A stretch of 64,000 bases of DNA, from positions 959 to 64,958 of the forward strand of contig CAYHYY010000001.1 in NCBI GenBank assembly GCA_964360975.1, in the 5' to 3' direction. Every line of letters starts with the position of its first letter. Within the stretch, counting starts at the first letter, position 1. Under the pieces are notes generated by a model. That model saw only the letters and a list, made by a program, of their open reading frames with translations, was not told the origin of the DNA and ran no database searches. Shown in pieces: positions 1-57,489 of this stretch. Position numbers and translations under genes: made by a program. This DNA comes from an uncultured Candidatus Saccharibacteria bacterium (GTDB taxonomy: Bacteria; Patescibacteriota; Minisyncoccia; Phycocordibacterales; Phycocordibacteraceae).

Positions 1-1
1 A

Positions 2-691: not shown

Positions 692-708
692 GTGAGCATG
701 CGCCCTTT

Positions 709-1488
709 ATGAGAAGAAGCCTCGTGGTCATTGCCATATTGTCTGCACTATCTCCATTCACTGCTCACGCGGCGGTAGTGATTTCGGAGATCATGTATGA
801 CCTCCCTGGTTCTGATGAAAACAGAGAGTGGATAGAACTGTACAACAACGGTGTCGAGATCGTAGACCTGGAGGACTGGAGATTTTTTGAAGGCGGTGTC
901 AATCACAAAATACTCCCACGCCACGCTTTGAGCCTCATGCCAAACTCATATGTTGTCATCGTACGTCATGTCGATGGGTTCAAGACGGACTGGCCTTTAT
1001 ATGATGGGGCACTCTTTGTAAGCTCGTTTTCTCTCAATAACACGGGAGAAAACCTCACTATCAAAAACGCCAATCTTGAAACTATTTTTTCGCTCGCTTA
1101 CACAAATAACGTTGCCGCGGGGGATGGAAATTCATTGAATCTGATACAGGGCGAGCTTGCATCTCGTCGGCCAACGCCGGGTATGTCGATAGCCGATGAA
1201 CCCCTCACGATACCTAAAGTAGTTACTTCTCTGGCAGAAGCGGCACCAGTCTCGGACGGTAACCTTTCAACGCAGGACGAGGTTAGAGAGACAGGTGCAA
1301 TAGATGGGGGCGGTATGGACAGGGGGGTCTATGCCGCTTCTTTCGTAGCTGGTGAGGAGCAACGCCCGCGTTCAATATTCCCGTGGATCGCCTCACTCAT
1401 TGCGGTAATGGGGCTCGGCTTCGCATCAGTTTTGTGGCGAAAAAGAAAATCCAAAAGCGGGTACACTATCATTGAAGAGGAGGTATGA
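709..1488 (+). CDS. Lamin-tail-domain (LTD) surface protein with an N-terminal signal peptide and a C-terminal TM anchor followed by basic residues
   Basis: Signal-like N-terminus MRRSLVVIAILSALSPFTAHA. LTD hallmark VISEIMYD..G.D..EWIELYN. C-terminal hydrophobic helix followed by RKRKSK. Confidence 0.55.
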   Translation: MRRSLVVIAILSALSPFTAHAAVVISEIMYDLPGSDENREWIELYNNGVEIVDLEDWRFFEGGVNHKILPRHALSLMPNSYVVIVRHVDGFKTDWPLYDGALFVSSFSLNNTGENLTIKNANLETIFSLAYTNNVAAGDGNSLNLIQGELASRRPTPGMSIADEPLTIPKVVTSLAEAAPVSDGNLSTQDEVRETGAIDGGGMDRGVYAASFVAGEEQRPRSIFPWIASLIAVMGLGFASVLWRKRKSKSGYTIIEEEV

Positions 1489-4162: not shown

Positions 4163-4163
4163 C

Positions 4164-5270
4164 ATGCGTATTCTCATTGCAACGGGCCTCTATCCTCCGG
4201 AGATTGGGGGACCAGCAACGTATTCAGCGCACCTCAAGAGGAGTCTGCCCGCGCATGGCATCGAAGTGGTTATCTTGCCGTTTAGCCGAGTTCGCCAATA
4301 TTGGAAAGTAGTTCGTCATCTCGTGTACTTCTACCTTGCCTTCAAGGAAGGAAAACGGACAGACCTTATATATGCTCAAGATCCTGTATCGGTCGGTGTG
4401 CCAGCGCTGTGTGCCGCGTTTTTATTACGGAAGCCTTATATGCTCAAGATTGTCGGCGATTACGCATGGGAACAGGCATCGCAGCGTTTCGGCTACGCGG
4501 GTACCCCCGATGCTTTCCAGGATGCTGAAATTCATATCATTGCAAAGATCTTCAGGACATTGGAACGTTTTGTTGCCAGGCAAGCGCACGTGGTCGTCGT
4601 TCCATCAAAGTATCTTGGCGGCATCGTGCGCCTTTGGGGTGTCCCCGAAGAGAAAATTGCGGTTATAAAAAATGGTATCGAGAGTTTCCAAGATACTGGT
4701 TCAAAGAGCGTCATTCGTGGATTATTTAAATTTCATGGAAAACTTATCATTTCGGTCGGCCGACTCGTTCCGTGGAAGGGATTTGATCTCTTAATTAGAA
4801 TTCTTCCCGCTATAAAAAAAAATTATCCTGATACAAAACTGCTCATTATTGGGTCGGGGCCTCTGATGGATGTTCTCGAAAAGAAATCTGTACAGATGGG
4901 GCTCATGAATGATGTCGTGTTTACCGGTGCACTGGAGCGGGACATCCTCATTCGCTATATTCGAGCATCAGATGTGTTTGCGTTGAATACGTCATATGAA
5001 GGACTTTCACATCAAATTCTTGAGGTGATGGCAGTCGGTGTTCCGGTCGTGACGACCCGCGTCGGTGGTAATCCAGAAGTTATTACGCACGGCGTTGATG
5101 GGTATCTCTTAAAGCACAATGACGCGAAGGGGTTTAGAGAAACTATCATGAAGCTGCTTGGTGATAGCGGTTTACGAACCCGTACGGTGGCAAACGCAAA
5201 GCGAAAAATCACGCAATTTTCTAATGAACGCATGGTCGCAGAAACGGCAGCACTGCTAAAAACAATATGA
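4164..5270 (+). CDS. Glycosyltransferase family 4
   Basis: MRILIATGLYPPEIGGPATY N-terminus and NTSYEGLSHQILEVMAVGVPVV motif. The start is taken at ATG 4164, directly after the upstream stop. Confidence 0.75.
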   Translation: MRILIATGLYPPEIGGPATYSAHLKRSLPAHGIEVVILPFSRVRQYWKVVRHLVYFYLAFKEGKRTDLIYAQDPVSVGVPALCAAFLLRKPYMLKIVGDYAWEQASQRFGYAGTPDAFQDAEIHIIAKIFRTLERFVARQAHVVVVPSKYLGGIVRLWGVPEEKIAVIKNGIESFQDTGSKSVIRGLFKFHGKLIISVGRLVPWKGFDLLIRILPAIKKNYPDTKLLIIGSGPLMDVLEKKSVQMGLMNDVVFTGALERDILIRYIRASDVFALNTSYEGLSHQILEVMAVGVPVVTTRVGGNPEVITHGVDGYLLKHNDAKGFRETIMKLLGDSGLRTRTVANAKRKITQFSNERMVAETAALLKTI

Positions 5271-25671: not shown

Positions 25672-27342
25672 ATGAAGAAAAAGCTAGCTGTTAAGCCAAA
25701 AAAACACCCTCTTCGTAGGACCAGCGTTCGCGCGAGGGCATTGAATTCGAAGGGAAAGTCAGCGTACGTCTCGGCGCCTGAAAGCTTCATGCCATCACAC
25801 GCGCTTTTTAAGCGTGGTGAATTTGATTTCAAAAATCTATTCATTTTTGAGATGGCGAACAATCATCAAGGAGATGTTCAGCACGGACTCAAGATAATTG
25901 ACGAATTGGGAAAAATTTCGAAAAAGATGGGAATCCGTGGCGCGATAAAGTTTCAATTGCGCGACCTCGACACATTCATTCATCCCGCACACAAGAAAGG
26001 ATCAAACAATAAACACGTTCCCCGATTTCTCTCTACGAGACTCTCACAAGCCGAATTCCAGAAACTCGTCGATGCAGCGCGCGATGCGGGTCTCCTCATT
26101 ATGGCGACGCCGTTCGATGAGAAGTCGGTTGATCTTCTAGAAGCGCTGCATATAGACATAGTTAAAGTCGCGAGCTGCTCGGCTCTCGATTGGCCGCTTT
26201 TGGAGCGCATTGCCGAAACGAACCGCCCTGTCATTGTATCGACCGCTGGAGTAGCGCTTCACGATGTCGATCGCGTCGTGGCGTTCTTCCAACACCGCGG
26301 CGTTCCGTTCGCGCTTATGCACTGCGTGGCGCTGTATCCGACGCCGAGCGAGAAACTTAATTTGGGACGGATCGAAATGTTTGCAAAGCGGTACCCTGAT
26401 GTACCGGTCGGCTACTCGACGCACGAAGATCCCAAGGATACGAATGCAGTGCGTGTTGCATACGCAAAAGGTGCGCGCATTTTTGAGAAACACGTAGCGC
26501 TTCCCACTGACCAATATTCTGTGAACAAGTATTCAGCGACGCCAGTTCAACTCATCAAATGGATAGAGGCGTGGCAAGAAACTGCCGCAATGCTTTCCGG
26601 AGACTCCACCATGACCGCTGGACCTGAAGAAACACAATCGTTGAGAGAGCTCATGCGCGGCGTGTTCGTGAAAAAGGCGGTAAAGAAGGGAGGAGCGCTC
26701 TCAAGGAACAACATTTACTTTGCGATGCCAGCATCTTCCGGGCAACTCGTGAGCGGCGAGTGGAAAGAGAGCATGGTTGCCGATCGCTCCTATAAAGCTC
26801 ACGAGGCTGTCTCGGCAGACGTCATCAATTCTTACCGCGTATCGAAAAATGAGCTTGTCGCGTCCTTTGTTCGCAGAATTAAGGGAATGCTTGCCGAGGC
26901 GAACATCGCTGTCGGTGCTGCTCCTGAGGTTGAATTGTCACACCACTATGGCCGTGAGCGATTTCTTGAATATGGCACGGCGATCATTAGTTGTATTAAC
27001 AGAGAGTATTGCAAAAAAGTACTCCTCCAGCTTCCGAACCAGTATCACCCAGCGCACTATCACAAAAAGAAAGAAGAGTCGTTCCAGGTGCTTTCAGGAG
27101 AGCTTGTGGTGGAGTTGGAAAAGAAACGAAAAATTCTTTATCCCGGAGACGTGTTGGTAGTGCCGCGCGGCACGTGGCACAGCTTCTGGACCGACACGGG
27201 TGCTATCTTTGAAGAAGTATCAACAACGCATTTCAATGACGATTCATTTTATGCAGATAAGACGATCAATAAAGTTCCACGAGACGAACGAAAGACGCAG
27301 CTGGTAAATTGGGGACGACATCAGTTTGATAACGAGCAATAG
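25672..27342 (+). CDS. NeuB-family nonulosonic-acid synthase (PEP aldolase TIM barrel) fused to a C-terminal cupin
   Basis: FIFEMANNHQGDVQHG (IAEIGxNHNGD-like) and an HEDPKD metal site. The C-terminus carries the cupin motif YHKKKEESFQVLSGELVVELEKKRKILYPGDVLVVPRGTWH. The start is uncertain: ATG 25672 was chosen, and the track ORF begins at 25489, overlapping the divergent neighbour. Confidence 0.65.
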   Translation: MKKKLAVKPKKHPLRRTSVRARALNSKGKSAYVSAPESFMPSHALFKRGEFDFKNLFIFEMANNHQGDVQHGLKIIDELGKISKKMGIRGAIKFQLRDLDTFIHPAHKKGSNNKHVPRFLSTRLSQAEFQKLVDAARDAGLLIMATPFDEKSVDLLEALHIDIVKVASCSALDWPLLERIAETNRPVIVSTAGVALHDVDRVVAFFQHRGVPFALMHCVALYPTPSEKLNLGRIEMFAKRYPDVPVGYSTHEDPKDTNAVRVAYAKGARIFEKHVALPTDQYSVNKYSATPVQLIKWIEAWQETAAMLSGDSTMTAGPEETQSLRELMRGVFVKKAVKKGGALSRNNIYFAMPASSGQLVSGEWKESMVADRSYKAHEAVSADVINSYRVSKNELVASFVRRIKGMLAEANIAVGAAPEVELSHHYGRERFLEYGTAIISCINREYCKKVLLQLPNQYHPAHYHKKKEESFQVLSGELVVELEKKRKILYPGDVLVVPRGTWHSFWTDTGAIFEEVSTTHFNDDSFYADKTINKVPRDERKTQLVNWGRHQFDNEQ

Positions 27343-27348
27343 TTATTT

Positions 27349-28071
27349 ATGAACATCTATGCGGTGATCCTTGCCCGCGGTGGTTCAAAAGGGGTACCAC
27401 GGAAAAATGTCCTGCCGCTGAACGGAAAGCCGTTGATTGCGTGGACTATTGAGGCCGCAAAAAAAGTGCCGACGATTTCTAGGGTCGTGGTGAACACCGA
27501 TGATGATGAGATTGCTTCCGTCGCTGAATCGTACGGCGCGGAGATTTACATGCGCCCGAGTGAACTTGCAGGGGATGACACTCCCGATCTTCCGGTATTT
27601 GAGCAGTACCTAACGCGCCTCAAAGCGCAAGGCGAGTTGCCGGACATGATTGTCGATCTTCGTCCCACCGCGCCACTCCGCAGCGCGAAACGCATTGCTG
27701 AAGGGATTGAACTTTTATCCCGGATTGGCATTCTGAAAGCTGACTCGGTTCGAGCTGTTTCAAAAGCCGCGAAACATCCTTACAAGATGTGGAATCTCAA
27801 GGGTGAACACATCACCCCGTTTCTTTCGAAGTCCGTTACGGGGCTCAATGAGCCGTACAACGCTCCGCGACAAGTATTGCCACAGGTATATCAGAATAAT
27901 GGGTGCATGAATGCATTCTGGCCGGCAACAGTACTTGAGAAGCATTCGATGTCAGGCAACACTATCGCAGGTTTCGTTATGGATGATTGGGAGTCCGTTA
28001 ACATTGATACAAAGCTCGACTTCAAACTTGCCGAACTACTTATGAAAGAACACGAGAAGTTGTTTGCCTAA
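27349..28071 (+). CDS. CMP-nonulosonic-acid cytidylyltransferase (NeuA/PseF/LegF family)
   Basis: AVILARGGSKGVPRKNVLPLNGKPLI signature. Confidence 0.75.
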   Translation: MNIYAVILARGGSKGVPRKNVLPLNGKPLIAWTIEAAKKVPTISRVVVNTDDDEIASVAESYGAEIYMRPSELAGDDTPDLPVFEQYLTRLKAQGELPDMIVDLRPTAPLRSAKRIAEGIELLSRIGILKADSVRAVSKAAKHPYKMWNLKGEHITPFLSKSVTGLNEPYNAPRQVLPQVYQNNGCMNAFWPATVLEKHSMSGNTIAGFVMDDWESVNIDTKLDFKLAELLMKEHEKLFA

Positions 28072-28099
28072 TACGGTAGCGTGCGCGATACTGACCGCC

Positions 28100-29158
28100 A
28101 TGTCTGTTAAAGTAAAAATCATCGGAGCTGGCTCTATTGGAAATCATCTCGCGCAAGCGTCTCGGCGCATTGGGTGGGACGTTACCGTAGTGGATGCGAA
28201 CCGCGATGCGCTGAAGCGCATGAAGGACGATATCTATCCAACTAGATATGGAATGTGGGATTCACGCATTAAGCTCGCGCACATGAGTGAAGAACCGAAG
28301 GGTGGCTTCGACATCGTTATGATCGGGACGCCTCCCGACAGTCATCTCAAACTCGCGCTCGCCGCACTCCGCGAAAAACCGCGTGTGCTACAAATAGAGA
28401 AGCCGCTCTGCCCACCATGTGATCCGCTCCTCTCCCGATTCCTCGCAGCAGCAAAAAAGTCGCGAACGAAAATCATTGTTGGCTACGATCACACCGTAGG
28501 CGCGTCCATTGAATACGTCGCGTCGCATATACAGATGCTTGGGACTCCGCTTACCTTAGATGTCGAATTCCGTGAACACTGGCAAGGCATTTTCAAAGCG
28601 CACCCTTGGCTTTCTGGTCCATCAGATTCGTATTTGGGATACTGGAAGCGAGGCGGAGGAGCATCCGGGGAACACTCGCACGCACTCCATCTCTATCAAT
28701 ACCTAGCAAAAGAGATGGGGTTGGGGACCTGGAAGAAGGTCGTACCGCATCTGACGGTAGAGAAAGCAGCAGGAGGAGTGCAATACGATTCGGTGGCATC
28801 ATTCGGATTCGAGATGAGCAAGGGGCGATACGGACGTGTTATTCAAGATGTCATAACACTTCCAACGCGAAAGTGGGCGCGAGCGCAGGGATCCGATGGA
28901 TTCATCGAGTGGATCTGTGGTGGTTCGCCGAAAGGGGACATTGTCCGCCATGCGCTGAAGGGTAAAAAGCTAGAGGAGAAAGTGTTTGAGAAGACGCGCC
29001 CTGACGATTTCTTGAGAGAAGTAAAACACATTGATAAAATCCTGAAAGGCAAGCAAAGCGCCGCGACTTCCCCTATGTCTCTAGAGAGCGCGGTCGCGGT
29101 GATTCGTGTACTAGAGAAAACGTGGAAGAGTAAATCAAAGGTCGCGATTTCTTTGTAA
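28100..29158 (+). CDS. Gfo/Idh/MocA-family NAD(P) oxidoreductase
   Basis: VKIIGAGSIGNHLAQA Rossmann motif and family-typical length. The start was taken at ATG 28100. Confidence 0.6.
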   Translation: MSVKVKIIGAGSIGNHLAQASRRIGWDVTVVDANRDALKRMKDDIYPTRYGMWDSRIKLAHMSEEPKGGFDIVMIGTPPDSHLKLALAALREKPRVLQIEKPLCPPCDPLLSRFLAAAKKSRTKIIVGYDHTVGASIEYVASHIQMLGTPLTLDVEFREHWQGIFKAHPWLSGPSDSYLGYWKRGGGASGEHSHALHLYQYLAKEMGLGTWKKVVPHLTVEKAAGGVQYDSVASFGFEMSKGRYGRVIQDVITLPTRKWARAQGSDGFIEWICGGSPKGDIVRHALKGKKLEEKVFEKTRPDDFLREVKHIDKILKGKQSAATSPMSLESAVAVIRVLEKTWKSKSKVAISL

Positions 29159-29328
29159 AACAAGCCGCCCGTTCGACAGTCCCCCGGACTATCGAACACC
29201 CCGCCCCAAAGGGGACGGGGTATTGAGCGGGCGGCACCGGGGTGTTTTTCTAGGTAGAGAATCGGCCACCGCCGATACTGGTTTACCCTCAATCCCCGCG
29301 GCAAGCCGCGGGGATTGAAACCTAGTAA
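29159..29328. repeat. Copy A of a ~170 bp GC-rich multi-hairpin intergenic element that begins directly after a stop codon
   Basis: About 95% identical to 57303..57475. Hairpins: ttcgacagtcc/ggactatcgaa, caccccgcccc/ggggacggggtg, and ccccgcgg-caag-ccgcgggg. An enclosing stem gccgcccg/cgggcggc is followed by a T5 run. Confidence 0.7.
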
Positions 29329-29532
29329 ACTACCCCGCTACTACCATATATGGTAGTGATGCGGCCTCCGCCGAGATTCTCTTGACGGTACTCCGTCATA
29401 GAGAATCCAAGTGTGGTCGCCCTGCGCGAGCCACCGGGCGCGCGTGGCGACGATTCACCCCCGTGCCAGAGGCACGGGGCACTCTCGTCGTCCAGCCAGT
29501 AGAAATCTCAAGCCGGTGCGCTTGAGATTTGC
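29329..29532. other. Hairpin-dense non-coding stretch of at least five strong stem-loops between convergent genes. Possibly a structured RNA.
   Basis: Stem-loops ctacca-tata-tggtag, gattctct[tgacgg-tact-ccgtca]agagaatc, gtcgcc..ggcgac, ccccgtgcc-aga-ggcacgggg, and aaatctcaag-ccggtgcg-cttgagattt. No ORF. Confidence 0.35.
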
Positions 29533-30890
29533 ATTATCGTGTCGGCAATGTGCGAGCCCGCAGTTCCGAAATTAGGCAAATACGAATTCACCAGCGTTAC
29601 TCTCTTTTCAGCATTTTGTTCTGGGTCGTTCATGTAGCTCCCGATGATTGACCTGAACGTATCTTTGTCGTATGCAACATCAACGCCACCTGTTTCGAGA
29701 GCCTTTCGAATAAAAGAGAACGTGAAGAGTAACCTGATTACTGCGTCGTCGTTTTCTGCATGATCCAAACCAGACAGTCCCGTGTAAATCATCGGCTTGT
29801 TCAAAACTGCCGCGTCGAGCGCAAGTGAGGAGAAAATACTCAAATTGACGTCAGCAAAGTTGAGAAGATTCGCGACGTGATCTTTGTTTGGGAGTGTGTC
29901 TGCGGATTCTAGCAAGAGATTCGGGAACTCTTGCTGGAGAGATATATACGCCTCGGGAATACGTTGCGTTGGTCCAAACCGAACGAGGACCATGCTCTCA
30001 GGGATTCTCATCGCTTTGATGTCTTCAAGGAGCAGCTTCGTGACGTCCAACTGATGTGGGTGCCAATTGTCCGTTCCGACGAAATACGTGATGAGCTTCT
30101 TTTGAGGATCAGCGCCGATTGATTTGAAAAGTTCTTCACGGGTAGCGGATGGAGAAAACTTTGCGTAGGTATCGTATCGCTGACATCCCTCGACATGTAT
30201 CAGTTCTGCATTGATCGACTTAAGATCAACGAGTTCCTGCTTCATCAGGTCATTCCAGACAAAGATGTGTGCCTGCCGCGGCACCGAGTACAGGCGATTT
30301 TCAAAATAGTTCCATGGCAAGTCGACGACGAATACGGGAACTCGATGTTTTCTACCAACGGCAAGCCACGCGATATCGTGTGCATCATGAGAAAGTGTAC
30401 CCACCACAATACCGTCAGGAGAGTGCTCGCGAAGTAGTCCTTCGAACGATGGCTCTGAGATTGCATACTCCTCGAGGTAGTCAAATAGATTCACCAAAGT
30501 ACTTCGAAAAGGCCTGAGAAGCATGCGCAAGAATTTCATGACTCGATCCTTCGGGGGGAGAGAGCGAATCAGTGCGTTTGCGGTCGTGCTCATTTCAACC
30601 AATTTCGCGTGTTCGTGCTTTGCGGTATCAAGTGCCAATGCATGTTCACGGACCCGGCTCGTTTTTACTAATGACGCGGGCAGTGCGGGCAGTGCTTGGT
30701 GGACTACATTTTCGCCAGAAAACTCCTTCGTGAAGTCTTCATCATCCACAAATGGAGAAAGGATCACGATCTTCGACTTTGTTTTCAGAGACGAAAAAAT
30801 GTCTGAACGAAGAATGGCGTTCGTGCGGTACGCGGTCGGAATAATGAAAAAAAAGGTCTTCATGAAGCGGCGCGATTGTACCACGCTCAT
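29508..30890 (-). CDS. TagF/TagB-like GT-B fold protein, paralog 1 of 5 (putative polymer glycosyl- or glycerophospho-transferase)
   Basis: Shares with 33205, 36414, 48570 and 58828 an N-terminal ILxI..P motif, HSPDGIVVGT, WNYF, VEGCQRYD (GYPxxD-like), and C-terminal SSLALDAAVLNKPMIYTG. Confidence 0.45.
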   Translation of the reverse strand: MSVVQSRRFMKTFFFIIPTAYRTNAILRSDIFSSLKTKSKIVILSPFVDDEDFTKEFSGENVVHQALPALPASLVKTSRVREHALALDTAKHEHAKLVEMSTTANALIRSLPPKDRVMKFLRMLLRPFRSTLVNLFDYLEEYAISEPSFEGLLREHSPDGIVVGTLSHDAHDIAWLAVGRKHRVPVFVVDLPWNYFENRLYSVPRQAHIFVWNDLMKQELVDLKSINAELIHVEGCQRYDTYAKFSPSATREELFKSIGADPQKKLITYFVGTDNWHPHQLDVTKLLLEDIKAMRIPESMVLVRFGPTQRIPEAYISLQQEFPNLLLESADTLPNKDHVANLLNFADVNLSIFSSLALDAAVLNKPMIYTGLSGLDHAENDDAVIRLLFTFSFIRKALETGGVDVAYDKDTFRSIIGSYMNDPEQNAEKRVTLVNSYLPNFGTAGSHIADTIMQISSAPA

Positions 30891-31842: not shown

Positions 31843-31979
31843 AGCATAACTTTTTTGATTGCTTCGATCAGAAGGGTTTTGATGGATAGAAGTGTTGAGC
31901 GTATTTCAGTCGTTTATCGCGGGCTACCTTTGGTTTCGTGCGTATGAGAGGCTGACGTTCAAGATTTCAAATGGTATTA

Positions 31980-31995
31980 TTTTCATATATGAAAA
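31980..31995. promoter_or_regulatory. 16 bp perfect palindrome TTTTCATATATGAAAA centred on the start codon of the TrpR-like gene (candidate operator)
   Basis: Seen in the sequence. A near-identical 18 bp palindrome recurs at 32439..32456. Confidence 0.4.
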
Positions 31996-32426
31996 AAAAG
32001 AAAGGAGATTTAAGTAAGGAAGAATTTATCAAGACACTCGACATGCTCTATACAGCTGCTGGTACTGTTAAAGGTCGAAAGGATATGAAGTCGTTCCTGC
32101 GCGACCTTTTGACGGAGAGCGAGCGAATAATGCTCGGGCGACGTATTTGGATTGCGAGGCTCCTCCTTAATGGAATAAGTGTCATTGAAATTAGTCACCA
32201 GCTCAGAGTGAGTGTGGCAACTGTATACCGGGTGGAGCGCTGGCTCAAGGATCAGTTCACAGGTTACGAAGGCGCGGTCAGGGGTCTTGAGCGTGAGATG
32301 GAAAAGCGCGCGCGCATCCGCGAGGCAATCGCAGAACCTTTTTCATTTGTTGCATTAAAGCGTAGGTATCCACTCCATTTTCTGCTGTTCCCTGACCCTA
32401 AACCCAAGAAGCGGTACCACGATTAA
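31989..32426 (+). CDS. TrpR-like DNA-binding protein (YerC/YecD family)
   Basis: LTESERIMLGRRIWIARLLLNGISVIEISHQLRVSVATVYRV matches the Trp-repressor-like helix-turn-helix. The start was taken at ATG 31989 (MKKKKGDL). Confidence 0.6.
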   Translation: MKKKKGDLSKEEFIKTLDMLYTAAGTVKGRKDMKSFLRDLLTESERIMLGRRIWIARLLLNGISVIEISHQLRVSVATVYRVERWLKDQFTGYEGAVRGLEREMEKRARIREAIAEPFSFVALKRRYPLHFLLFPDPKPKKRYHD

Positions 32427-32438
32427 TATATTTTCGAG

Positions 32439-32456
32439 ATTTTCATATATGAAAAT
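32439..32456. promoter_or_regulatory. 18 bp perfect palindrome ATTTTCATATATGAAAAT, 13 nt after the stop of the TrpR-like gene (second candidate operator)
   Basis: Seen in the sequence. Pairs with the site at 31980..31995. Confidence 0.4.
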
Positions 32457-32589
32457 ATTTGCGAGTTGCTGTTCGTCATTGTTGAGAAGACCATACGTGA
32501 GTCGGCAGCGTCCCTATACATACTATACGCAGCAACATCAATGCACGTTTTCCTTACGTGCTTAAAGCACTGTATGCTGCTCTGTTATT

Positions 32590-34626: not shown

Positions 34627-36417
34627 ATGACTGCATCAAGCACTGTACCCCGTATGCGCGCAACCGAGCTCCTTTGGACGCTCTATGGTGAGCATAAAGG
34701 ATACGTCGTCATCCTTCTGGTTCTTGGCATACTTGGTGGATTTCTCGAGACGCTGGGGATTAGTATTCTCATTCCGCTTTTCTCGCACGTGTTAGACAAG
34801 CCTCTCATAGAAACAGGAAATTTCGCCGCGTTTTTCGTGCGGCTTTTTGATTTTTTCCACATTCAGCAACGCCTGAGCGTGCTCTTGCCACTTCTCGTCT
34901 CCATTTTTGTGTTTCGAGGTCTCGTCCTCTATAGCTTCAATTATGTTCGCGCACGGGTTATGGGCGATTACGAACGTGCGACACGGACGAGTGTCTATAA
35001 AAAATTGCTGCATGCTGACTGGCCATTTCTATCGGCACAACGCATCGGACATGCGGAGAATACGCTCATGGCCGATGTTGATAGGGCGACAAAGCTACTC
35101 GCCAATCTCACGAATTCCATTCTTCAGGTATCGAGTCTCGCGATCTACGTCACGGTGGCCATAGCTATTTCTCCAGAGGTGACCGCGGCAACCTTGATAA
35201 CCGGTGGAGCGCTGCTTTACTTCTTTCGGCCGCTCATTCGCAGGAATCGTGAGTATTCAGCTAAAACCGTCGATCTCAATAAACGGATCGCGCACGATGT
35301 CAATGAAAGCATCATCGGAATAAAATCAGTCAAAATCATGAACCGTGAAGACGCATTGAGCGATCGGATGGCGCGCCTCTTCAATTATCTCCGTGATCTG
35401 AAAATCAAACGCACATTAATTTCATCCGCGACGACAGAATTCATTCAGCCCGTGAGTGTCATTTTCGTTGTGCTCGTGTTTATCTACGCTTTTTATCGAC
35501 CCGGATTTGATCTGGCGACATTTGCGGTCGTCATGTTTCTCATTCAACGCATATTCATCTATGTTGATCGAGGGCAGACGCTCATGCATGAGATTAATCA
35601 GCAACTACCGCACGCAACGTATTTAGTGAATTTCCTCGGCTTACTTGAAGGTCGAACGACGGGAGTCAATGGCGAGAAGCCTTTCGCATTTGGCAAAGAA
35701 ATCGTCTTCGATCATGTTTCATTCGTGTATGAGTCGGAACGCACGGTGCTCAAGGACGTAACGTTTTCAATCAAGCACGGTGAAATGGTTGGCATCATTG
35801 GGCCTTCAGGCGTTGGGAAGACCACGGTCGTTGATCTCATCATGAGACTTCTTGACCCGTCGGATGGGAAAATTACGGTCGACGGCGTTCCGCTTGACCG
35901 TATAAGCACGAAGGAATGGCGCTCCCATATTGGTTACGTGCCACAAGACATCTTTCTCCTGAATGAGAGTATTTTTCAGAATATTCGATTTTTTGACCAC
36001 TCAGTTTCTCCCGATGATGTCCGTATCGCTATTCGCGATGCGAAACTCGACGAGGTGGTCGCGGCGCTTCCTCAGGGCATAGAGACTAACGTGGGAGAGC
36101 GGGGCGTCGCGCTTTCTGCGGGACAACGACAGCGCATTGTTCTCGCGAGAGCTCTTGCTCGGAAACCGGACATTCTCATTCTCGATGAGGCGACGAGTTC
36201 TCTGGATGCTGAATCTGAGAGTGTCATTCACGAGGCGCTTGAAGCAATACGCGGAAAAGTCACGGTCATCATAATCGCGCACCGACTTTCTACGATTATG
36301 AATGCAGATACGCTGGTAGCACTTGAGGGTGGACAGATCGTCGAGCACGGGACGCCAGATGCGCTACTAAAAAACCCGAAGTCATATTTCTATCGTTTGC
36401 GGTCTATGCAAACATGA
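34627..36417 (+). CDS. ABC exporter with a fused six-TM permease and ATPase (MsbA-like family)
   Basis: Six N-terminal TM helices. Walker A GPSGVGKTT, ABC signature LSAGQRQRIVLARAL, and Walker B ILILDEATSSLD. Confidence 0.85.
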   Translation: MTASSTVPRMRATELLWTLYGEHKGYVVILLVLGILGGFLETLGISILIPLFSHVLDKPLIETGNFAAFFVRLFDFFHIQQRLSVLLPLLVSIFVFRGLVLYSFNYVRARVMGDYERATRTSVYKKLLHADWPFLSAQRIGHAENTLMADVDRATKLLANLTNSILQVSSLAIYVTVAIAISPEVTAATLITGGALLYFFRPLIRRNREYSAKTVDLNKRIAHDVNESIIGIKSVKIMNREDALSDRMARLFNYLRDLKIKRTLISSATTEFIQPVSVIFVVLVFIYAFYRPGFDLATFAVVMFLIQRIFIYVDRGQTLMHEINQQLPHATYLVNFLGLLEGRTTGVNGEKPFAFGKEIVFDHVSFVYESERTVLKDVTFSIKHGEMVGIIGPSGVGKTTVVDLIMRLLDPSDGKITVDGVPLDRISTKEWRSHIGYVPQDIFLLNESIFQNIRFFDHSVSPDDVRIAIRDAKLDEVVAALPQGIETNVGERGVALSAGQRQRIVLARALARKPDILILDEATSSLDAESESVIHEALEAIRGKVTVIIIAHRLSTIMNADTLVALEGGQIVEHGTPDALLKNPKSYFYRLRSMQT

Positions 36418-37781
36418 AAGTTCTCTTCGTCATCCGTTCGGTGAACTTGTTTCACTACTATAAGAGCATTATCACTGCGCTCGCCAAGCGGGGACATGTG
36501 GTCGAGATGTTATTCGATGAAAAGTGGAGTACTGCTCATTCTATTGAACCGGTGAAAGAATTCATTGCACGATATCCTGCGTGCACCTACGGATGGTCTC
36601 TGCGAAGGCATGGTTGGCTTAAGCCATGTATCTTTCAAGTGCGCGAGCTTCGTAGTTACCGACGATTCCTCATTGTTCCGGGGCAGTCGACGTATTATCG
36701 CGACCGATGGCCAAACCACATGCCCTGGTTATGGCGACAGACGCTCAAACGCGTTCCGGGCGCGAAAGCAATATTGAAAACAAAGTTGTGCGGACGCTTC
36801 CTCGCATTCATAGAGGACAGCGTTCGACCTGATCCGAGAATAGTCGAGGACATTCGAAAGCATGCGCCAGACATTGCAGTGGTCACGCCGCTCAATCTGC
36901 GACTCTCCGAGGATATCGAATATTTAAAGGCTGCGCGCTCTCTAAAGATACCGACCGCGGGCGCTGTGCTTTCGTGGGACAATTTGACCACGAAGGGACT
37001 TATGAGCATTTTGCCAGATATACTCTTGGTCTGGAATGAAGCGCAAGTCGAAGAAGCGCGCGTGCATCACCAGATTCCTCCCGAGAAAACTCGAGTCGTT
37101 GGCGCTGCAGTTTTCGACCAATGGTTTGATTCAAACCTTTCTGCTTCAGCAGATAGAGAAGTTTTTTGCACGGCCCACGGACTGGATCCCAAGAAGCCGT
37201 ACGTTTTGTATCTCGGATCGTCTCGCAACATGGCGTACGACGAAACGTGGATTATTAAGAAACTGCGAACAGCGCTCGACGAGAGCGACGATCCTCTCCT
37301 TCGGTCGGTGCAGCTCGTGGTACGACCGCACGGGGCTAATTACGCAATCTATAAGGATATAGAAACACCCGGCATTGTGCTGGTCCCCCGTGAGGGAACG
37401 CTTCCGAATACGAGGGAGACGCTTCAGCTCTTTTACGATACCGCGTATCATTCTGTCGGCGTCATTATCGGTGCGAACACGAGCGCCATCATTGACTCAA
37501 TGACCGTGGGGAAGCCAGCGATAGTGTTTCAAACAGACCAGTACCGAAAGACGCAGATGGATACGCAGCACTTTCGGCAACTTCTTGAAATGGAAGTGCC
37601 GTACCTGGTGCCAGATACAGTTTCATTCTTAAAGCGCATGTTTTCACTTTTGAAAGGTGACGACCCGAAGCGAGAAAACAGGCATGCATTCATCAAACGG
37701 TATATTCGACCGCATGACGTGAGCGCCGGCGAAAAGGCGGCAGACATTCTTGAGGGACTTGCGAAAAAACGCGCGCGCTAG
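36414..37781 (+). CDS. TagF/TagB-like GT-B fold protein, paralog 3 of 5
   Basis: MKVLFVIRSVNLFHY, HAPDIAVVTP, SWDNLTTKG, VVGAAVFDQ, GANTSAIIDSMTVGKPAIVF. Confidence 0.45.
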   Translation: MKVLFVIRSVNLFHYYKSIITALAKRGHVVEMLFDEKWSTAHSIEPVKEFIARYPACTYGWSLRRHGWLKPCIFQVRELRSYRRFLIVPGQSTYYRDRWPNHMPWLWRQTLKRVPGAKAILKTKLCGRFLAFIEDSVRPDPRIVEDIRKHAPDIAVVTPLNLRLSEDIEYLKAARSLKIPTAGAVLSWDNLTTKGLMSILPDILLVWNEAQVEEARVHHQIPPEKTRVVGAAVFDQWFDSNLSASADREVFCTAHGLDPKKPYVLYLGSSRNMAYDETWIIKKLRTALDESDDPLLRSVQLVVRPHGANYAIYKDIETPGIVLVPREGTLPNTRETLQLFYDTAYHSVGVIIGANTSAIIDSMTVGKPAIVFQTDQYRKTQMDTQHFRQLLEMEVPYLVPDTVSFLKRMFSLLKGDDPKRENRHAFIKRYIRPHDVSAGEKAADILEGLAKKRAR

Positions 37782-37945
37782 AGCATGTCCGGAAACCTCC
37801 CCCTACCTGGAAACCGCTCATTTCCTACTCAACATTTCGTCTCGTCCTCAACGTACTCTCAGTACGCTTCGGACTCCGACTCATGTCTCATGACGGAAAT
37901 GAACGGTTTCGGTTCGGGTACCGCGGGTTTCCGGACATGCTCTAG
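37778..37945. repeat. 168 bp imperfect palindrome with 20 bp perfect terminal inverted repeats (CTAGAGCATGTCCGGAAACC ... GGTTTCCGGACATGCTCTAG). Could be a structured RNA or a MITE-like element.
   Basis: The terminal inverted repeats are 37778..37797 and 37926..37945. An inner pair ggaaaccgctcatttcc (37809..37825) / ggaaatgaacggtttc (37895..37910) has one mismatch. The element overlaps the stop of the upstream gene and lies just before the ATG of the next gene. Confidence 0.45.
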
Positions 37946-43268: not shown

Positions 43269-44204
43269 ATGAAAAAAATACTTATTACGGGAGCGGCGGG
43301 GTTTGTCGGCTCTCATGTCGTACGACAGGCGCTCGAAAAGGGTTTTGAGGTGCACGCACTCGTTCGCAGAAATTCTTCCCTCGAGCGCATTCAGGATGTT
43401 ATGGAACGTATCACTATCCATGAGGAATCACTGGAAGACAAAGCGTCACTTGAAGCACTGCTAAAACGAATTGGCGCTGAGGCGGTGATCCACCTCGCTA
43501 CCTCTCCGATAATGAGCGGCCAGACAGCAGACGCGGAGACGCTTATCAGGACAAATATTGAAGGTACGGTTCACCTTATGGATGCCGCAGCAGCCGTTGG
43601 AGTAGATGCTTTCATTCATATAGGAAGCGGTGGAGGGGAGTATGGCCCCAAGGATCATCCTGTTCGCGAGGATGAGCGATGCGAACCGGTCGAACTGTAC
43701 GCCACGACGAAATTAGCGGCGACGCTCTATGGGCAGGGACTTGCACGACGCACCGGGTTTCCCTGTATGACGTTCCGTATCTTCACGCCGTACGGACCTG
43801 GAATTCAAAAGGGGAGGCTCGTCTACAATCTCATCGATAAAACCCTTAAAGGAGAATCCATCCAAATGAGTAGTCCGAAAATTTCTCGCGATTTCGTGTA
43901 CGTGGAAGATATTCCACCGCTTCTCCTCGAGGCTTTACCGCATGCCAAGGAACACGCGGGTGAAATATACAATCTGGGCAGCGGCACGTCGACGTCACTC
44001 AAGCAACTCACCGATGCCGTTTTTAAAGCTCTCGGTAAAGAAACGGAAGTAGCATGGAACGCGCTCCCCGTCTTAAGTTATGACAGCGAAATATGGCAAG
44101 CAGATATGAGGAAAACATTTTCAGCGTTCACGTGGCGACCGCAAACCACATTAGAAGAAGGGATGAAGAGAACGATACAATGGATGCAAGCCTCACGCGC
44201 ATGA
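43269..44204 (+). CDS. NAD-dependent epimerase/dehydratase family (possibly a GDP-4-keto-6-deoxyhexose reductase)
   Basis: ITGAAGFVGSHVV and YATTK (YxxxK). Adjacent to the RmlC-like epimerase and close to gmd. Confidence 0.65.
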   Translation: MKKILITGAAGFVGSHVVRQALEKGFEVHALVRRNSSLERIQDVMERITIHEESLEDKASLEALLKRIGAEAVIHLATSPIMSGQTADAETLIRTNIEGTVHLMDAAAAVGVDAFIHIGSGGGEYGPKDHPVREDERCEPVELYATTKLAATLYGQGLARRTGFPCMTFRIFTPYGPGIQKGRLVYNLIDKTLKGESIQMSSPKISRDFVYVEDIPPLLLEALPHAKEHAGEIYNLGSGTSTSLKQLTDAVFKALGKETEVAWNALPVLSYDSEIWQADMRKTFSAFTWRPQTTLEEGMKRTIQWMQASRA

Positions 44205-44737
44205 AGGTCACTCCACTTCGATTAGCTGGACTCGCTTCCATAACTCCAGAAGTTCACGGTGATTCGCGCGGATATTTTATGGAAGTGTTTAACAAAGACA
44301 CTTTTACGGACGCCGGTTTACCATTCGACGTTGTCGAGCATAATCAATCGCACTCACAAAAGAATGTTCTCCGTGGACTTCACTTCCAGTATGATCCACC
44401 GCTGAGTAAAATAGTGCGCGTTGTACGAGGGAAAGCTTTTTTTGTCGCCGTCGATACCAGAAAGGAGTCTCAAACGGTGGGTGGGTGGGAGGCGCGAGAG
44501 CTGTCACCTGAAACAAAAGAATTGTTTTTTATTCCTGCTGGGTTTGCTACAGGATTTTGCGCTTTGGAGGACGACACCGATATTGAGTATTACTTTAACA
44601 ATCACTACAATCCAAGAGGGGAAACAAACATCGCGTGGAATGATCACCTCATAAACATTTCGTGGCCTATAGAAAATCCGATTCTTTCAGAACGAGATGC
44701 AGGAGCGCAATCTCTTAAAGATTGGCTCGCTCGATAA
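44201..44737 (+). CDS. NDP-4-keto-6-deoxyhexose 3,5-epimerase (RmlC/RfbC cupin family)
   Basis: GDSRGYFMEVF (GDERGFFxExF), NQSHSQKNVLRGLHFQ, and the AGFATGFCALED region. The start at 44201 overlaps the upstream stop (ATGA). Confidence 0.8.
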   Translation: MKVTPLRLAGLASITPEVHGDSRGYFMEVFNKDTFTDAGLPFDVVEHNQSHSQKNVLRGLHFQYDPPLSKIVRVVRGKAFFVAVDTRKESQTVGGWEARELSPETKELFFIPAGFATGFCALEDDTDIEYYFNNHYNPRGETNIAWNDHLINISWPIENPILSERDAGAQSLKDWLAR

Positions 44738-44749
44738 ATTTCGACGCAG

Positions 44750-45688
44750 TTAGAGAATCAAAGGAAAAACGAAGGCGACGAAAAAGGGGATGTAGATAAG
44801 CGCAAAGAGCGTCGTCGAGACCACGGCAACGGCCGCTTTTTCGGGGACGGTGTTTAGTTGTGACGCATAGGCAACAGTGTTTGAAGCGAGCGGCACAATC
44901 GAAAAGGTGAGCATGATCGGATATACAGAAGCACTAAAAAAATGAAAAGTGTTGATGTCCAACAAGATAAGACTAATCGCTGCAGCGGGCCAGACGAGGA
45001 ATTTTGATGCAAACGATAAGAGTAGGAATTTTTTGTCTACGTCGCTCCATGCGACACCAGCGAGGCCAATGCCGACAAGCATCATGCCGAGCACGGAGTA
45101 CGCTCCTCGAAAATGAGCGAAAAGAGTTGACGCGTTTTCATATATGGATATGTGCAGCGCTAGAAACAGGACACCCACAATGAAGGCATACAGCGTGGGA
45201 AGCCTCAACACTCGCATGATCGCGTCACGAGGAAGAAAATTTCCGCGTGCGACGAAGTAATAGCCAATAGAATTTTCAAAGAGGGATATGCCGAGAATGA
45301 GGAGTACCGCTACCGACAAGTACTGTTCACCAAAAAGTGCGAGGACGAGGGGTAGACCAAAGTAGCCAGCGTTACCTGTGCCCGCGCCAAATGCCAAAAT
45401 ATTCTTTTCTGGTCCCTGCCAATACATTTTTCCAATGTTATAGAACGCGATACTCATGATTGTTGCTAGAGAAAACGATAGAAGCGGCAGGAGCATGATA
45501 GACCGATCGGGGGACGCAGTGACCACGCCATTAAAAATGACGAAGGGCACAATAAAAAAAATGAGGAGGCTCGCTATTGATTCTTTGTTGACCTTGAAAT
45601 AGCGGCCAGCGAGGTATCCAAGCAATACCAGTACGTAAAGAGGGAGAATTTTCGAAATGAGATCGACAAAGAGTTCCATGTGTGGCAA
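44750..45688 (-). CDS. AEC-family (auxin-efflux-carrier-like) membrane transporter
   Basis: About 10 TM helices. N-terminal ILPLYVLVLLGYLAGRY is typical of the family. Confidence 0.55.
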   Translation of the reverse strand: MPHMELFVDLISKILPLYVLVLLGYLAGRYFKVNKESIASLLIFFIVPFVIFNGVVTASPDRSIMLLPLLSFSLATIMSIAFYNIGKMYWQGPEKNILAFGAGTGNAGYFGLPLVLALFGEQYLSVAVLLILGISLFENSIGYYFVARGNFLPRDAIMRVLRLPTLYAFIVGVLFLALHISIYENASTLFAHFRGAYSVLGMMLVGIGLAGVAWSDVDKKFLLLSFASKFLVWPAAAISLILLDINTFHFFSASVYPIMLTFSIVPLASNTVAYASQLNTVPEKAAVAVVSTTLFALIYIPFFVAFVFPLIL

Positions 45689-53291: not shown

Positions 53292-53320
53292 ATCCCGCCT
53301 CGGCGGGATTTTGTGTTTTT
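53292..53320 (+). terminator. Rho-independent terminator after the Wzy_C/TPR gene
   Basis: atcccgcc-tc-ggcgggat hairpin followed by tttgtgttttt. Confidence 0.5.
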
Positions 53321-54771: not shown

Positions 54772-54808
54772 AAAAAAAGCTTCGATACATTCGAAGCTTT
54801 TTTCTTTT
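54772..54808. terminator. Bidirectional rho-independent terminator (A-run, agcttcga-tacat-tcgaagct, T-run)
   Basis: An 8 bp GC-containing stem flanked by A7 upstream and T7 downstream. Confidence 0.5.
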
Positions 54809-54833
54809 TATATCAGGCATCGCTCATGCAAAT

Positions 54834-57475: not shown

Positions 57476-57489
57476 TATACAATAGATAT

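What the first reader, a model, noticed from the sequence alone, without database searches (positions are those of the whole stretch)
29159..29328. About 170 bp GC-rich multi-hairpin element present twice, each time starting directly after a stop codon, with compensatory base changes
Sequences 29159..29328 (after the Gfo/Idh/MocA gene) and 57303..57475 (after secA) are about 95% identical, and both begin 'AACAAGCCGCCCG' right after the stop codon. They fold into a closing stem gccgcccg/cgggcggc enclosing hairpins ttcgacagtcc/ggactatcgaa and caccccgcccc-aaa-ggggacggggtg. A U-run follows (ggggtgttttt), then a terminal perfect hairpin. That terminal hairpin differs between copies on both arms so that pairing is kept: ccccgcgg-caag-ccgcgggg versus gccccgcgg-cata-gccgcggggc. 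Conservation of structure while sequence changes is a signature of selection on an RNA or DNA secondary structure. The element is likely a terminator-containing repeat, a small structured RNA, or a miniature mobile element.
Basis: seen in the sequence. Interest (0 to 1): 0.7.

Follow-up and report, generated by a model that had tools for sequence, protein, structure and literature searches.

The report
Small hairpin-rich mobile element at stop codons
The two ~170-base GC-rich repeats are copies of a small, gene-less mobile DNA element that inserted right after stop codons in a groundwater Patescibacteria (CPR) genome; its folded shape is conserved in a distant relative, but it is a fairly ordinary kind of bacterial "junk" repeat, not a terminator or a CRISPR repeat.

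Summary
Copies at 29159..29328 and 57303..57475 are 96.6% identical, and each starts right after a TAA stop codon. Nothing else in the 64 kb window matches.

Copy B is a clean insertion. Three SecA orthologues at 77-80% identity have only 15 nt between secA and the next gene. The window has that same spacer plus 173 nt.

Every junction I could read has GTAA on both sides, always in the same orientation, and there are no terminal inverted repeats. Other copies with different flanks occur in the same Hainich groundwater population, and short-read contigs break at the element.

The two window copies alone show no significant covariation. A distant homologue (L015, covariance-model E about 1e-21) keeps the same fold of two three-way junctions, with 10 of the 11 stem pairs that differ on both sides.

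The element matches no Rfam family. It has no canonical terminator on the + strand. The terminal hairpin only weakly resembles a CRISPR repeat, and that resemblance is lost in the homologue.

Best reading: a non-autonomous, TIR-less element specific for GTAA/TTAC sites. I infer that it moves as single-stranded DNA through an HUH (IS200/IS605- or RAYT-like) transposase supplied in trans. No transposase was found. It is a new member of a known kind and of moderate interest.

The parts
29155..29158 (+). GTAA at the left junction of copy A. TAA at 29156..29158 is the stop codon of the Gfo/Idh/MocA-type ORF 28064..29158.
29159..29328 (+). Copy A of the element (170 nt), ending in CCTAGTAA.
   Evidence: covariance-model hit 211.5 bits
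29164..29235 (+). Copy A, 5' domain. This is a three-way junction closed by GCCGCCCG (29164..29171) / CGGGCGGC (29228..29235). It encloses hairpin 1 (29172..29196, absent in L005 and L015) and hairpin 2 (29197..29222, with a bulged A and an AAA loop). Hairpin 2 is the most conserved part of the family.
29236..29249 (+). Linker ACCGGGGTGTTTTT. The T-run can pair with AAAACA at the 5' end. It is not a canonical terminator tail.
29250..29325 (+). Copy A, 3' domain. This is a second three-way junction closed by CTAGG (29250..29254) / CCTAG (29321..29325). It encloses hairpin 3 ATCGGC-CACC-GCCGAT (29261..29276) and the long terminal hairpin (29280..29322). The terminal hairpin gives a sub-threshold Rfam CRISPR-DR18 hit.
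29329..29507 (.). Hairpin-rich spacer between copy A and the convergent gene 29508..30890 (-). Segment 29333..29436 is itself a repeat, 99% identical to L009 49..152. Fold z-score is -6.6.
57299..57302 (+). GTAA at the left junction of copy B. TAA at 57300..57302 is the secA stop codon.
57303..57475 (+). Copy B of the element (173 nt). It is an insertion relative to SecA orthologous loci. Sub-parts: 5' domain 57308..57379, hairpin 1 57316..57340, hairpin 2 57341..57366, linker 57380..57393, 3' domain 57394..57472, hairpin 3 57405..57420, terminal hairpin 57424..57469.
   Evidence: (227.2 bits)
57476..57489 (+). Ancestral 14-nt spacer TATACAATAGATAT before the holin_4_2-like gene 57490..57828. 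It corresponds to the 15-nt secA-to-next-gene spacer of relatives and contains a TACAAT -10-like box.

Best explanation
The two repeats are copies of a small (about 150-175 nt) non-coding, non-autonomous mobile element in a Patescibacteria (CPR) genome.

Shown:
- Copy B is a base-exact insertion between the secA stop codon and the 14-15 nt spacer that precedes the next gene in relatives.
- The element is multi-copy in the source population.
- It has no terminal inverted repeats.
- At every junction read it is bracketed by the non-palindromic tetranucleotide GTAA (TTAC on the other strand), always in the same orientation.
- It folds into two tandem three-way junctions. This architecture is kept, with compensatory changes, in a distant homologue.

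Inferred:
- It is moved in trans by a strand-specific, hairpin-recognising enzyme. The most likely candidate is an HUH/Y1 single-strand DNA transposase of the IS200/IS605 or REP-associated (RAYT) type.
- Such an enzyme inserts 3' of a short target (TTAC/GTAA) without duplicating it. The element's own end carries the same tetranucleotide.
- Because GTAA contains TAA, a gene end reading G-TAA is a target that leaves the ORF intact. In a genome that is about 94% coding, those are among the few insertions that survive. This explains 'always right after a stop codon, always in the same orientation'.
- The element's terminal GTAA re-creates a target. This would explain the tandem and mosaic clusters seen after copy A, in L009 and in L017.
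- The conserved hairpins are then transposase recognition structures. Any effect on mRNA, such as 3' end protection of the upstream message or displacement of the next gene's -35 region, would be a by-product.
For: Insertion:
- SecA orthologues at 80%, 77% and 77% identity have 15 nt between secA and the holin_4_2-like gene.
- The aligned junctions read ..GAG TGA TATACAATAGACTTC ATG in L011, against ..GAG TAA [173 nt] TATACAATAGATAT ATG in the window. The SecA C-terminus is unchanged in length.

Multi-copy:
- L009 holds a 96%-identical copy plus inverted fragments.
- L005 joins a hairpin-1-less variant to a different upstream flank ending GGGTAA.
- P0121 is an over-extended rpsP ORF that reads through another copy about 70 nt upstream of rpsP.
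- L017 shows another right junction.
- Five short-read contigs start or end inside the first 30 nt of the element.

GTAA on both sides:
- Seen in A, B, L005, L009 (right side mutated to GTGA), P0121 (back-inferred) and the distant L015.
- No other flank conservation was seen.

No terminal inverted repeat.

Structure:
- z-scores are -8.5 to -10 on both strands, for RNA and DNA parameters.
- The L015 homologue scores 75.8 bits, E about 1e-21, over the full model.
- Its independent minimum-energy fold gives the same two domains.
- 11 pairs are changed on both sides, against 0-1 in slid controls and 0 of 500 shuffles.

Conserved hairpin 2:
- It carries a bulged base and a fixed loop, and a 26-nt run CCCCGCCCCAAAGGGGACGGGGTATT is identical between X and L015.
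- This is the kind of feature Y1 transposases read (PMC8266576).

Known biology: IS608 inserts 3' of TTAC without target duplication and has subterminal palindromes instead of inverted repeats (PMC8612924).

Target supply: the window is 93.7% coding, 5 of 55 genes end in GTAA, and only 27 of 288 GTAA/TTAC sites are intergenic.
Against: - No transposase of any kind was found in the window or in any fetched locus. No full-length insertion sequence with these ends is known, so the HUH assignment rests on anatomy only.
- A 3-4 bp target-site duplication (TAA or GTAA) by another enzyme class cannot be formally separated from 'target plus identical element end', because the same four bases sit on both sides.
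- The two end hairpins are not close copies of each other, as they usually are in IS200/IS605.
- The active strand is unresolved. The minus (TTAC) strand always folds 5-8 kcal/mol better. GC skew, however, suggests the + strand is the lagging-strand template, which IS608-type elements prefer.
- Copy number per genome is unknown. The two big DNA scans used patterns that later proved not to be the most conserved, and they found almost nothing.
- Several extra 'copies' come from 1.6-4x coverage contigs that may be chimeric across the repeat (L005, L017).
Confidence: 0.6

Rival explanations
1. The element exists because of what its RNA does. It would be a structured 3'-UTR or intergenic RNA module, such as an exonuclease block or mRNA stabiliser, a partial terminator, or a small RNA. 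It happens to spread, and the covariation reflects selection on the RNA fold.
For: - Copies A, B and the left half of L005 lie in sense orientation directly behind ORFs, so they would be co-transcribed.
- The fold is very stable.
- Compensatory changes occur in the homologue.
- Two C-to-T changes in terminal stems give G.U pairs on the + strand.
- REP/BIME elements are known to have such roles (PMC8266576).
Against: - No Rfam family matches.
- No canonical + strand terminator is present.
- The structure is equally or more stable on the opposite strand, where the C.A mismatches become G.U pairs.
- The P0121 copy is antisense to the neighbouring rpsP.
- The L015 copy sits after the upstream gene's own terminator.
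- Close relatives do without the element at the secA site.
- This reading is not exclusive of mobility.
Confidence: 0.15
2. It is a classical DDE-transposase MITE that duplicates a 3-4 bp target (TAA or GTAA) on insertion. IS5/PIF-Harbinger-type elements make TNA/TWA duplications of this kind.
For: - Identical bases on both sides are formally compatible with a target-site duplication.
- Size, absence of an ORF and multi-copy status fit a MITE (PMC3184786).
- A separate, true TIR-type MITE is present in the same window at 37778..37945.
Against: - There are no terminal inverted repeats. The only inverted repeats are internal to each domain.
- The flanking tetranucleotide is non-palindromic and orientation-locked in all copies. 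This is unexpected for two-fold symmetric DDE cleavage.
Confidence: 0.1
3. It is moved by a site-specific recombinase that needs no inverted repeats and leaves a short repeated core. Candidates are DEDD IS110/IS492-type enzymes or a serine or tyrosine recombinase.
For: - There are no TIRs and a constant short core on both sides.
- IS110-family elements are known to target repeat sequences (PMC3184786).
Against: - Beyond GTAA the flanks share nothing. These enzymes normally need 10 nt or more of target identity.
- No recombinase gene was seen.
Confidence: 0.07
4. The terminal hairpin is a solitary CRISPR repeat, acting as a crRNA-like regulator or decoy carried on a repeat element.
For: - Rfam CRISPR-DR18 aligns to GTTTACCCTCAAT-CCCCGC..GCGGGG-ATTGAAAC in both copies, at 27.5 bits (E 0.012) and 20.4 bits (E 0.26) in small search spaces.
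- Solitary repeat units with functions are known in phages (PMC10651486, listed).
Against: - The scores are far below the gathering score of 50, and nothing passes the gathering threshold when the whole window is searched.
- There is no array and no cas gene in the window.
- ATTGAAAC and its partner are simply the lower stem of a long palindrome. In L015 they are replaced by GTCCA/TGGAC.
- No CRISPR-DR hit is found in L015 or L009 at E up to 1.
Confidence: 0.03
5. It is a recent segmental duplication with no mobility and no constraint on structure.
For: Only two copies are in the window, and they are 96.6% identical.
Against: - Similarity stops exactly at GTAA on both sides, and the flanks are unrelated.
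- Empty sites exist in relatives.
- Other copies exist elsewhere, and a distant homologue shows covariation.
Confidence: 0.01

Closest known systems
Non-autonomous derivatives of IS200/IS605 elements (palindrome-associated elements). IS608 is the reference for a TTAC target.
   Same: - No terminal inverted repeats.
- GC-rich hairpins near both ends.
- A constant, non-palindromic, orientation-locked tetranucleotide next to the element. It reads TTAC on one strand, exactly the IS608 target (PMC8612924).
- A conserved hairpin with a bulged base.
   Different: - No cognate tnpA or tnpB was found.
- The two end hairpins are not near-identical.
- The hairpins are embedded in two three-way junctions instead of being simple subterminal stem-loops.
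- The host is a CPR bacterium.
- Membership is not demonstrated.
REP / BIME / REPIN repeats mobilised by REP-associated tyrosine transposases (RAYT, TnpA_REP)
   Same: - Extragenic GC-rich palindromes next to a conserved tetranucleotide (GTAG there; GTAA here, often as TAGTAA).
- Mosaic clusters of units in both orientations, as in L009 and the region after copy A.
- Location at gene 3' ends (PMC8266576; PMC3116915, listed).
   Different: - REP units are 20-50 nt single palindromes present in hundreds of copies. This is a 150-175 nt composite with a fixed order of five stems.
- Copy number is unknown.
- No RAYT gene was seen.
Classical bacterial MITEs (Correia/NEMIS, Nezha, ERIC, RUP, BOX)
   Same: - Size under 200 bp, no ORF and a stable predicted fold.
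- Intergenic position close to gene ends.
- Mobility shown here by the same filled-versus-empty-site logic used for Nezha (PMC3184786).
   Different: Those elements have terminal inverted repeats and site-variable target duplications. This one has neither.
Right-end guide RNAs (reRNA / omega RNA) of TnpB
   Same: - A structured non-coding segment of roughly 150-200 nt ending exactly at an element end.
- That end abuts a TTAC-type motif, which would serve as the transposon-associated motif (PMC8612924).
   Different: - No tnpB lies adjacent or anywhere in the sequences held.
- No Rfam hit.
- No evidence of transcription.
- This is a resemblance only.

Membership tests
Classical MITE | Terminal inverted repeats at the two ends | tested here: not met
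   The inverted-repeat scan of 57296..57480 finds only internal stems and none joining the two termini.
Classical MITE | Target-site duplication flanking the element | tested here: inconclusive
   GTAA lies on both sides in all copies. This could be a duplication, or a target plus an identical element end.
Classical MITE | Small, non-coding and multi-copy, with filled and empty sites among relatives | tested here: met
   The element is 150-175 nt with no ORF. At least 5 distinct flank sets were found. Empty secA sites are seen in L010, L011 and the P0002 contig.
IS200/IS605-derived non-autonomous element | No inverted repeats; subterminal hairpins at both ends | tested here: met
IS200/IS605-derived non-autonomous element | Insertion next to a fixed 4-5 nt target, strand-specific, without target duplication | tested here: inconclusive
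   The GTAA/TTAC tetranucleotide is fixed and orientation-locked in 6 junction sets. Absence of duplication cannot be shown, because the element end carries the same four bases.
IS200/IS605-derived non-autonomous element | A cognate full-length element (tnpA and/or tnpB) with the same ends in the same or a related genome | not testable with these tools
   None is present in the window or the fetched loci.
REP/BIME with RAYT | A 20-50 nt palindrome directly preceded by the conserved GTAG, in very high copy number | tested here: not met
   The unit is a 170-nt composite and the tetranucleotide is GTAA. There are only 2 copies in 64 kb.
REP/BIME with RAYT | Mosaic clusters of units in alternating orientation | tested here: met
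   L009 positions 1..820 contain a 96-nt inverted duplication, tandem 66-nt units and shared modules with window 29333..29436.
Intrinsic terminator | A GC-rich stem-loop immediately followed by a U-run on the transcribed strand | tested here: not met
   Copy A has no + strand site. Copy B has only a weak alternative hairpin. The T-run lies 9 nt after the closing stem. Genuine terminators in this genome look canonical, at 53293..53320 and 54773..54810.
CRISPR repeat (Rfam RF01331 CRISPR-DR18) | Score at or above the gathering threshold, and repeat-spacer array organisation | tested here: not met
   Scores are 27.5 and 20.4 bits against a gathering score of 50. There is no array. The motif is not conserved in L015.
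Any curated RNA family (Rfam 15), tRNA or tmRNA | Match at the gathering score / ARAGORN detection | tested here: not met

The most novel reading that the evidence does not exclude
The element could be a stand-alone guide-RNA cassette.

- Read on the TTAC strand, it is a structured scaffold of about 170 nt that ends exactly at the element boundary next to a TTAC-type motif. This is the layout of a TnpB/IscB right-end (omega) RNA, whose guide would be the flanking DNA.
- The flanking DNA here is the antisense of the upstream gene's 3' end.
- The strongly conserved domain next to that boundary would be the protein-binding scaffold.
- The element would then be a trans-acting homing or regulatory RNA for a nuclease encoded elsewhere in a CPR genome.
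Probability: 0.06. Interest if true: 0.7.

Novelty: new member of a known kind. Interest (0 to 1): 0.38.

Why it matters
CPR/Patescibacteria genomes are tiny and densely packed, and they are usually described as poor in mobile DNA. A structured, gene-less element that survives there by landing exactly on G-TAA stop codons is a clear example of how target choice and purifying selection shape where selfish DNA can persist.

There are practical consequences:
- The element breaks short-read assemblies and creates chimeric contigs in these metagenomes.
- It causes over-extended gene calls, for example the 208-aa 'S16' protein.

If the mobilising enzyme is an HUH transposase, or a TnpB-type nuclease is involved, the family gives a handle on active single-strand transposition in an uncultivated phylum.

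The finding does not open a new mechanism. It is a new family within the well-known class of small palindromic bacterial repeats.

Tried and rejected
1. Genome-contig scan with GCCGCCCGTTCGACAGTCCC gave 3 hits in unrelated GC-rich genomes. All are bare 20-mers by chance.
2. Metagenome-contig scan with ACTGGTTTACCCTCAATN{0,1}CCCC gave one hit, L009. In hindsight the conserved core CCCCGCCCCAAAGGGGACGGGG would have been the better probe. Both scans were then exhausted.
3. Viral scans with three element patterns gave 0, 0, and 2 chance hits in AT-rich phage coding DNA. blastn against phage and plasmid collections found nothing.
4. I searched all six reading frames of the element, concatenated, against the protein database to catch spurious ORFs. 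Only P0121 came back. Its contig is not on record, and an S16 search gave no identical twin.
5. The same trick with exhaustive HMMER gave P0241, and through it L015. This was the productive lead.
6. Pfam on 10 neighbouring ORFs found sugar and polysaccharide enzymes and a Trp-repressor-like protein. No transposase, recombinase or Cas protein was found.
7. The terminator reading was rejected.
8. The CRISPR-repeat reading was rejected.
9. The tRNA-like or tmRNA reading of the 5' domain was rejected.
10. An alternative pairing, AACACCCCG with CGGGGTGTT followed by the T-run, could look like a switchable terminator. It is not conserved in L015, so I dropped it.
11. I tried to orient the active strand from fold energies and from GC skew. 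The two weak clues disagree.
12. A literature search for CPR repeat elements returned nothing relevant.

Full report
**1. The observation**

Window 29155..29336 and 57299..57482 align with 3 substitutions and 3 single-base indels. Similarity starts at G-TAA and ends at CCTAGTAA, and the flanks beyond are unrelated. blastn gives 96.6% identity over 177 columns, E 2.6e-81. Neither word-7 blastn, the repeat finder nor a covariance model finds a third copy in the window.

Copy A lies between convergent genes: a Gfo/Idh/MocA-type ORF 28064..29158 (+) and an unknown ORF 29508..30890 (-). Copy B lies between secA 54834..57302 and a holin_4_2-like gene 57490..57828, both on the + strand. Both intergenic gaps are among the largest in a window that is 93.7% coding.

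**2. Anatomy**

Both strands fold far better than dinucleotide shuffles, as RNA and as DNA. RNA z-scores are -9.5, -8.8 and -8.5; DNA z-scores are -10.0 and -9.0. The element has two tandem three-way junctions.

- The 5' domain is closed by GCCGCCCG/CGGGCGGC. It holds hairpin 1 (TTCGACAGTCC/GGACTATCGAA) and hairpin 2 (CACCCCGCCCC-AAA-GGGGACGGGGTG, with a bulged A).
- A linker ACCGGGGTGTTTTT follows. Its T-run can pair with AAAACA at the very 5' end.
- The 3' domain is closed by CTAGG/CCTAG. It holds hairpin 3 (ATCGGC-CACC-GCCGAT) and the long terminal hairpin (GGTTT.CTCAAT-[GC stem]-ATTGA.AACC).

No inverted repeat joins the two termini.

**3. What it is not**

- Rfam has no match at gathering thresholds anywhere in the window. 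ARAGORN finds no tRNA or tmRNA.
- With permissive thresholds the terminal hairpin hits CRISPR-DR18 at 27.5 and 20.4 bits, against a gathering score of 50. There is no array, no second repeat and no cas gene. The ATTGAAAC tail is just the lower stem of a palindrome, and the distant homologue replaces it.
- The T-run lies 9 nt after the closing stem. The terminator scan finds nothing on the + strand of copy A and only a weak alternative hairpin in copy B. Real terminators in this genome are canonical, for example 53293..53320 and 54773..54810.

**4. Source organism**

Exact-protein look-ups place the window in 0.1-µm-filtered Hainich groundwater metagenomes. The best named SecA homologues are from Patescibacteria: Paceibacteria and Kaiserbacteria.

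**5. Copy B is an insertion**

The three nearest SecA orthologues (80%, 77% and 77% identity) are followed by the same holin_4_2-like and Obg genes. Only 15 nt separate secA from the next gene in each. The junctions aligned:

- L011: ..GCCGAG TGA TATACAATAGACTTC ATG
- L010: ..GTCGGC TGA GGTACAATAGTGCGT ATG
- window: ..GTGGAG TAA [173 nt] TATACAATAGATAT ATG

The SecA C-termini have the same length. The element therefore sits exactly between the stop codon and the ancestral spacer. Nothing resembling the element occurs elsewhere in those relatives' 13-19 kb loci.

**6. More copies in the population**

- Five short-read contigs from several Hainich samples begin or end within the first 30 nt of the element, as expected for a repeat.
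- L009 carries a 96%-identical 5' domain preceded by GGTAGTAA. Around it is an 820-nt non-coding mosaic containing a truncated 3' domain, a second complete terminal hairpin, an inverted 96-nt duplicate, tandem 66-nt units, and the module that follows copy A in the window (29333..29436, 99% identical).
- L005 joins a variant lacking hairpin 1 to a different upstream flank. That flank is open in one frame up to ...GTC GGG TAA.
- P0121 is a 208-aa 'S16' from another NCBI contig. It is an over-extended ORF reading through an antisense copy about 70 nt upstream of rpsP. Back-translation gives ..GTAGTAA|AACAAG at one end and CCTAGTAA|T at the other.
- L017 follows window 27034..29329. Right after CCTAGTAA it continues with AACAAGCCGC, the element's first 10 nt, and then the end of a gene not in the window. 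This is another right junction, a recombinant, or a chimeric contig.

Some of these contigs have 1.6-4x coverage and may be chimeric across the repeat. Even so, they document additional flanks.

**7. A distant homologue and the structure question**

On four close copies, 98% of cells pair but covariation is nil: 379 of 500 shuffles score as high. The in-window 'compensation' is one paired gain or loss of a G-C pair plus a loop change. The loop occurs as CAAG, ATA and TAT. ATA and TAT are each other's inversion. Such flips can arise in one step by template switching in a palindrome, which is my inference.

An exhaustive HMMER search with the minus-frame translation found an 82-aa spurious ORF, P0241, at E 3e-4. 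Its contig is L015. L015 contains a 162-nt element, ccgGTAA|ACCAGGCCGCCCG...ACGCCCGTAA|ATAAT. It scores 75.8 bits, E about 1e-21, over the full covariance model.

- Its 5' domain is about 90% identical to the window copies, including a 26-nt identical run covering hairpin 2. It lacks hairpin 1, as L005 does. Hairpin 1 is therefore probably a later addition.
- Its 3' domain has diverged in sequence, but it folds on its own into the same three-way junction.
- On the model alignment, 11 pairs differ on both sides. Slid controls give 0-1, and 0 of 500 shuffles reach 11. All but one are contributed by L015. They include all 5 pairs of the lower terminal stem (UCAAU/AUUGA to GUCCA/UGGAC), 2 pairs in the closing stem, 2 in hairpin 3, and C-G to U-A in the upper stem.

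Two caveats apply: this rests on one divergent sequence, and the alignment was fitted to the model. The independent fold agrees with it. The structure is therefore under selection.

**8. The flanking tetranucleotide**

GTAA lies on both sides of A, B, the L005 variant, the P0121 copy (back-inferred from the protein) and L015. In L009 the right side has mutated to GTGA. The orientation is always the same, and no other flank conservation exists.

A constant, non-palindromic, orientation-locked tetranucleotide without inverted repeats is what strand-specific single-strand transposition produces. IS608 inserts 3' of TTAC, the complement of GTAA, without duplication. It has subterminal palindromes instead of inverted repeats (PMC8612924). 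Y1 enzymes read bulged bases and loop bases of such hairpins, and REP elements combine a palindrome with a conserved tetranucleotide and form mosaics (PMC8266576).

GTAA contains TAA, so a G-TAA gene end is a target that leaves the ORF intact. Five of 55 genes in the window end that way, and two of those are occupied. Only 27 of 288 GTAA/TTAC sites are intergenic. Since the element ends in GTAA, it re-creates a target. This fits the tandem and mosaic clusters. In L015 the element is not at a stop codon. It lies about 85 nt downstream of the upstream gene's stop, after that gene's own terminator. The stop-codon position is therefore a consequence of target and selection, not a requirement.

**9. 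What remains inferred**

No transposase or recombinase was seen. 'Target plus identical end' cannot be separated from a 3-4 bp duplication.

The active strand is also open. The TTAC strand folds 5-8 kcal/mol better in A, B and L015, because C.A mismatches on the + strand become G.U pairs. The positive GC skew, however, suggests the + strand is the lagging-strand template that IS608-type elements use. An RNA-level role is possible and not exclusive of mobility, but there is no positive evidence for one.

**10. Verdict**

This is a real, well-delimited feature: a new family of small, TIR-less, hairpin-rich non-autonomous mobile elements in a CPR bacterium. Its structure is conserved and it is specific for GTAA/TTAC sites. 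The kind is known (REP/BIME, IS200/IS605-derived elements, MITEs). Membership in a specific family is not established.

Noticed in passing
window 37778..37945: A different 168-bp element with perfect 20-nt terminal inverted repeats (CTAGAGCATGTCCGGAAACC ... GGTTTCCGGACATGCTCTAG). It starts on the TAG stop codon of ORF 36414..37781 and fills most of the 197-nt gap before the next gene. It looks like a classical TIR-type MITE with CTAG/TA ends.
   Followed up: partly
window 29329..29507; L009 1..183: The spacer after copy A is built of other repeated hairpin modules, with fold z -6.6. Segment 29333..29436 is 99% identical to L009 49..152. In L009 a 39-nt piece between two CCCCGC direct repeats is missing, and a 66-nt unit is tandemly duplicated.
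   Followed up: partly
window, upstream of many start codons (e.g. 57478..57483, 22559, 30940, 40083, 51025): Many genes have a TAnnnT (-10-like) box 6-9 nt before the start codon and no obvious Shine-Dalgarno sequence. TACAATAG before the holin_4_2-like gene is conserved in L010, L011 and L015. This suggests leaderless transcripts. Copy B would then have replaced the -35 region of that promoter.
   Followed up: partly
window 4162..5267 and 44204..44750: Apparent 'intergenic' gaps that read like coding sequence. One carries a glycosyltransferase motif of repeat family D2, and the other resembles an RmlC-type epimerase. They may be frameshifted or pseudogenised sugar-pathway genes, or start or frame miscalls in my crude ORF map.
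   Followed up: no
window 31971..32457: A 151-aa Trp-repressor-like / HTH ORF (Pfam PF01371, E 4e-14) is bracketed by a 33-nt imperfect inverted repeat (31978..32010 / 32425..32457) and by unusually long AT-rich spacers.
   Followed up: no
L017 2255..2310: The terminal hairpin is a hybrid: the 5' arm matches copy A, while the loop TAT and 3' arm match other copies. The element's 3' end CCTAGTAA is directly followed by its own first 10 nt, AACAAGCCGC. This could be a tandem or circle junction remnant, a recombinant, or an assembly chimera.
   Followed up: partly
L015 1257..1449: A partial tmRNA gene (Rfam RF00023, 30.5 bits, E 8e-10, cut by the contig end) lies on the contig that carries the distant homologue.
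   Followed up: no
P0121 (NCBI contig of 36,212 bp, not in the window): A public 208-aa 'ribosomal protein S16' is a mis-called ORF. Its first ~87 residues are the antisense translation of this repeat element plus the rpsP leader.
   Followed up: yes
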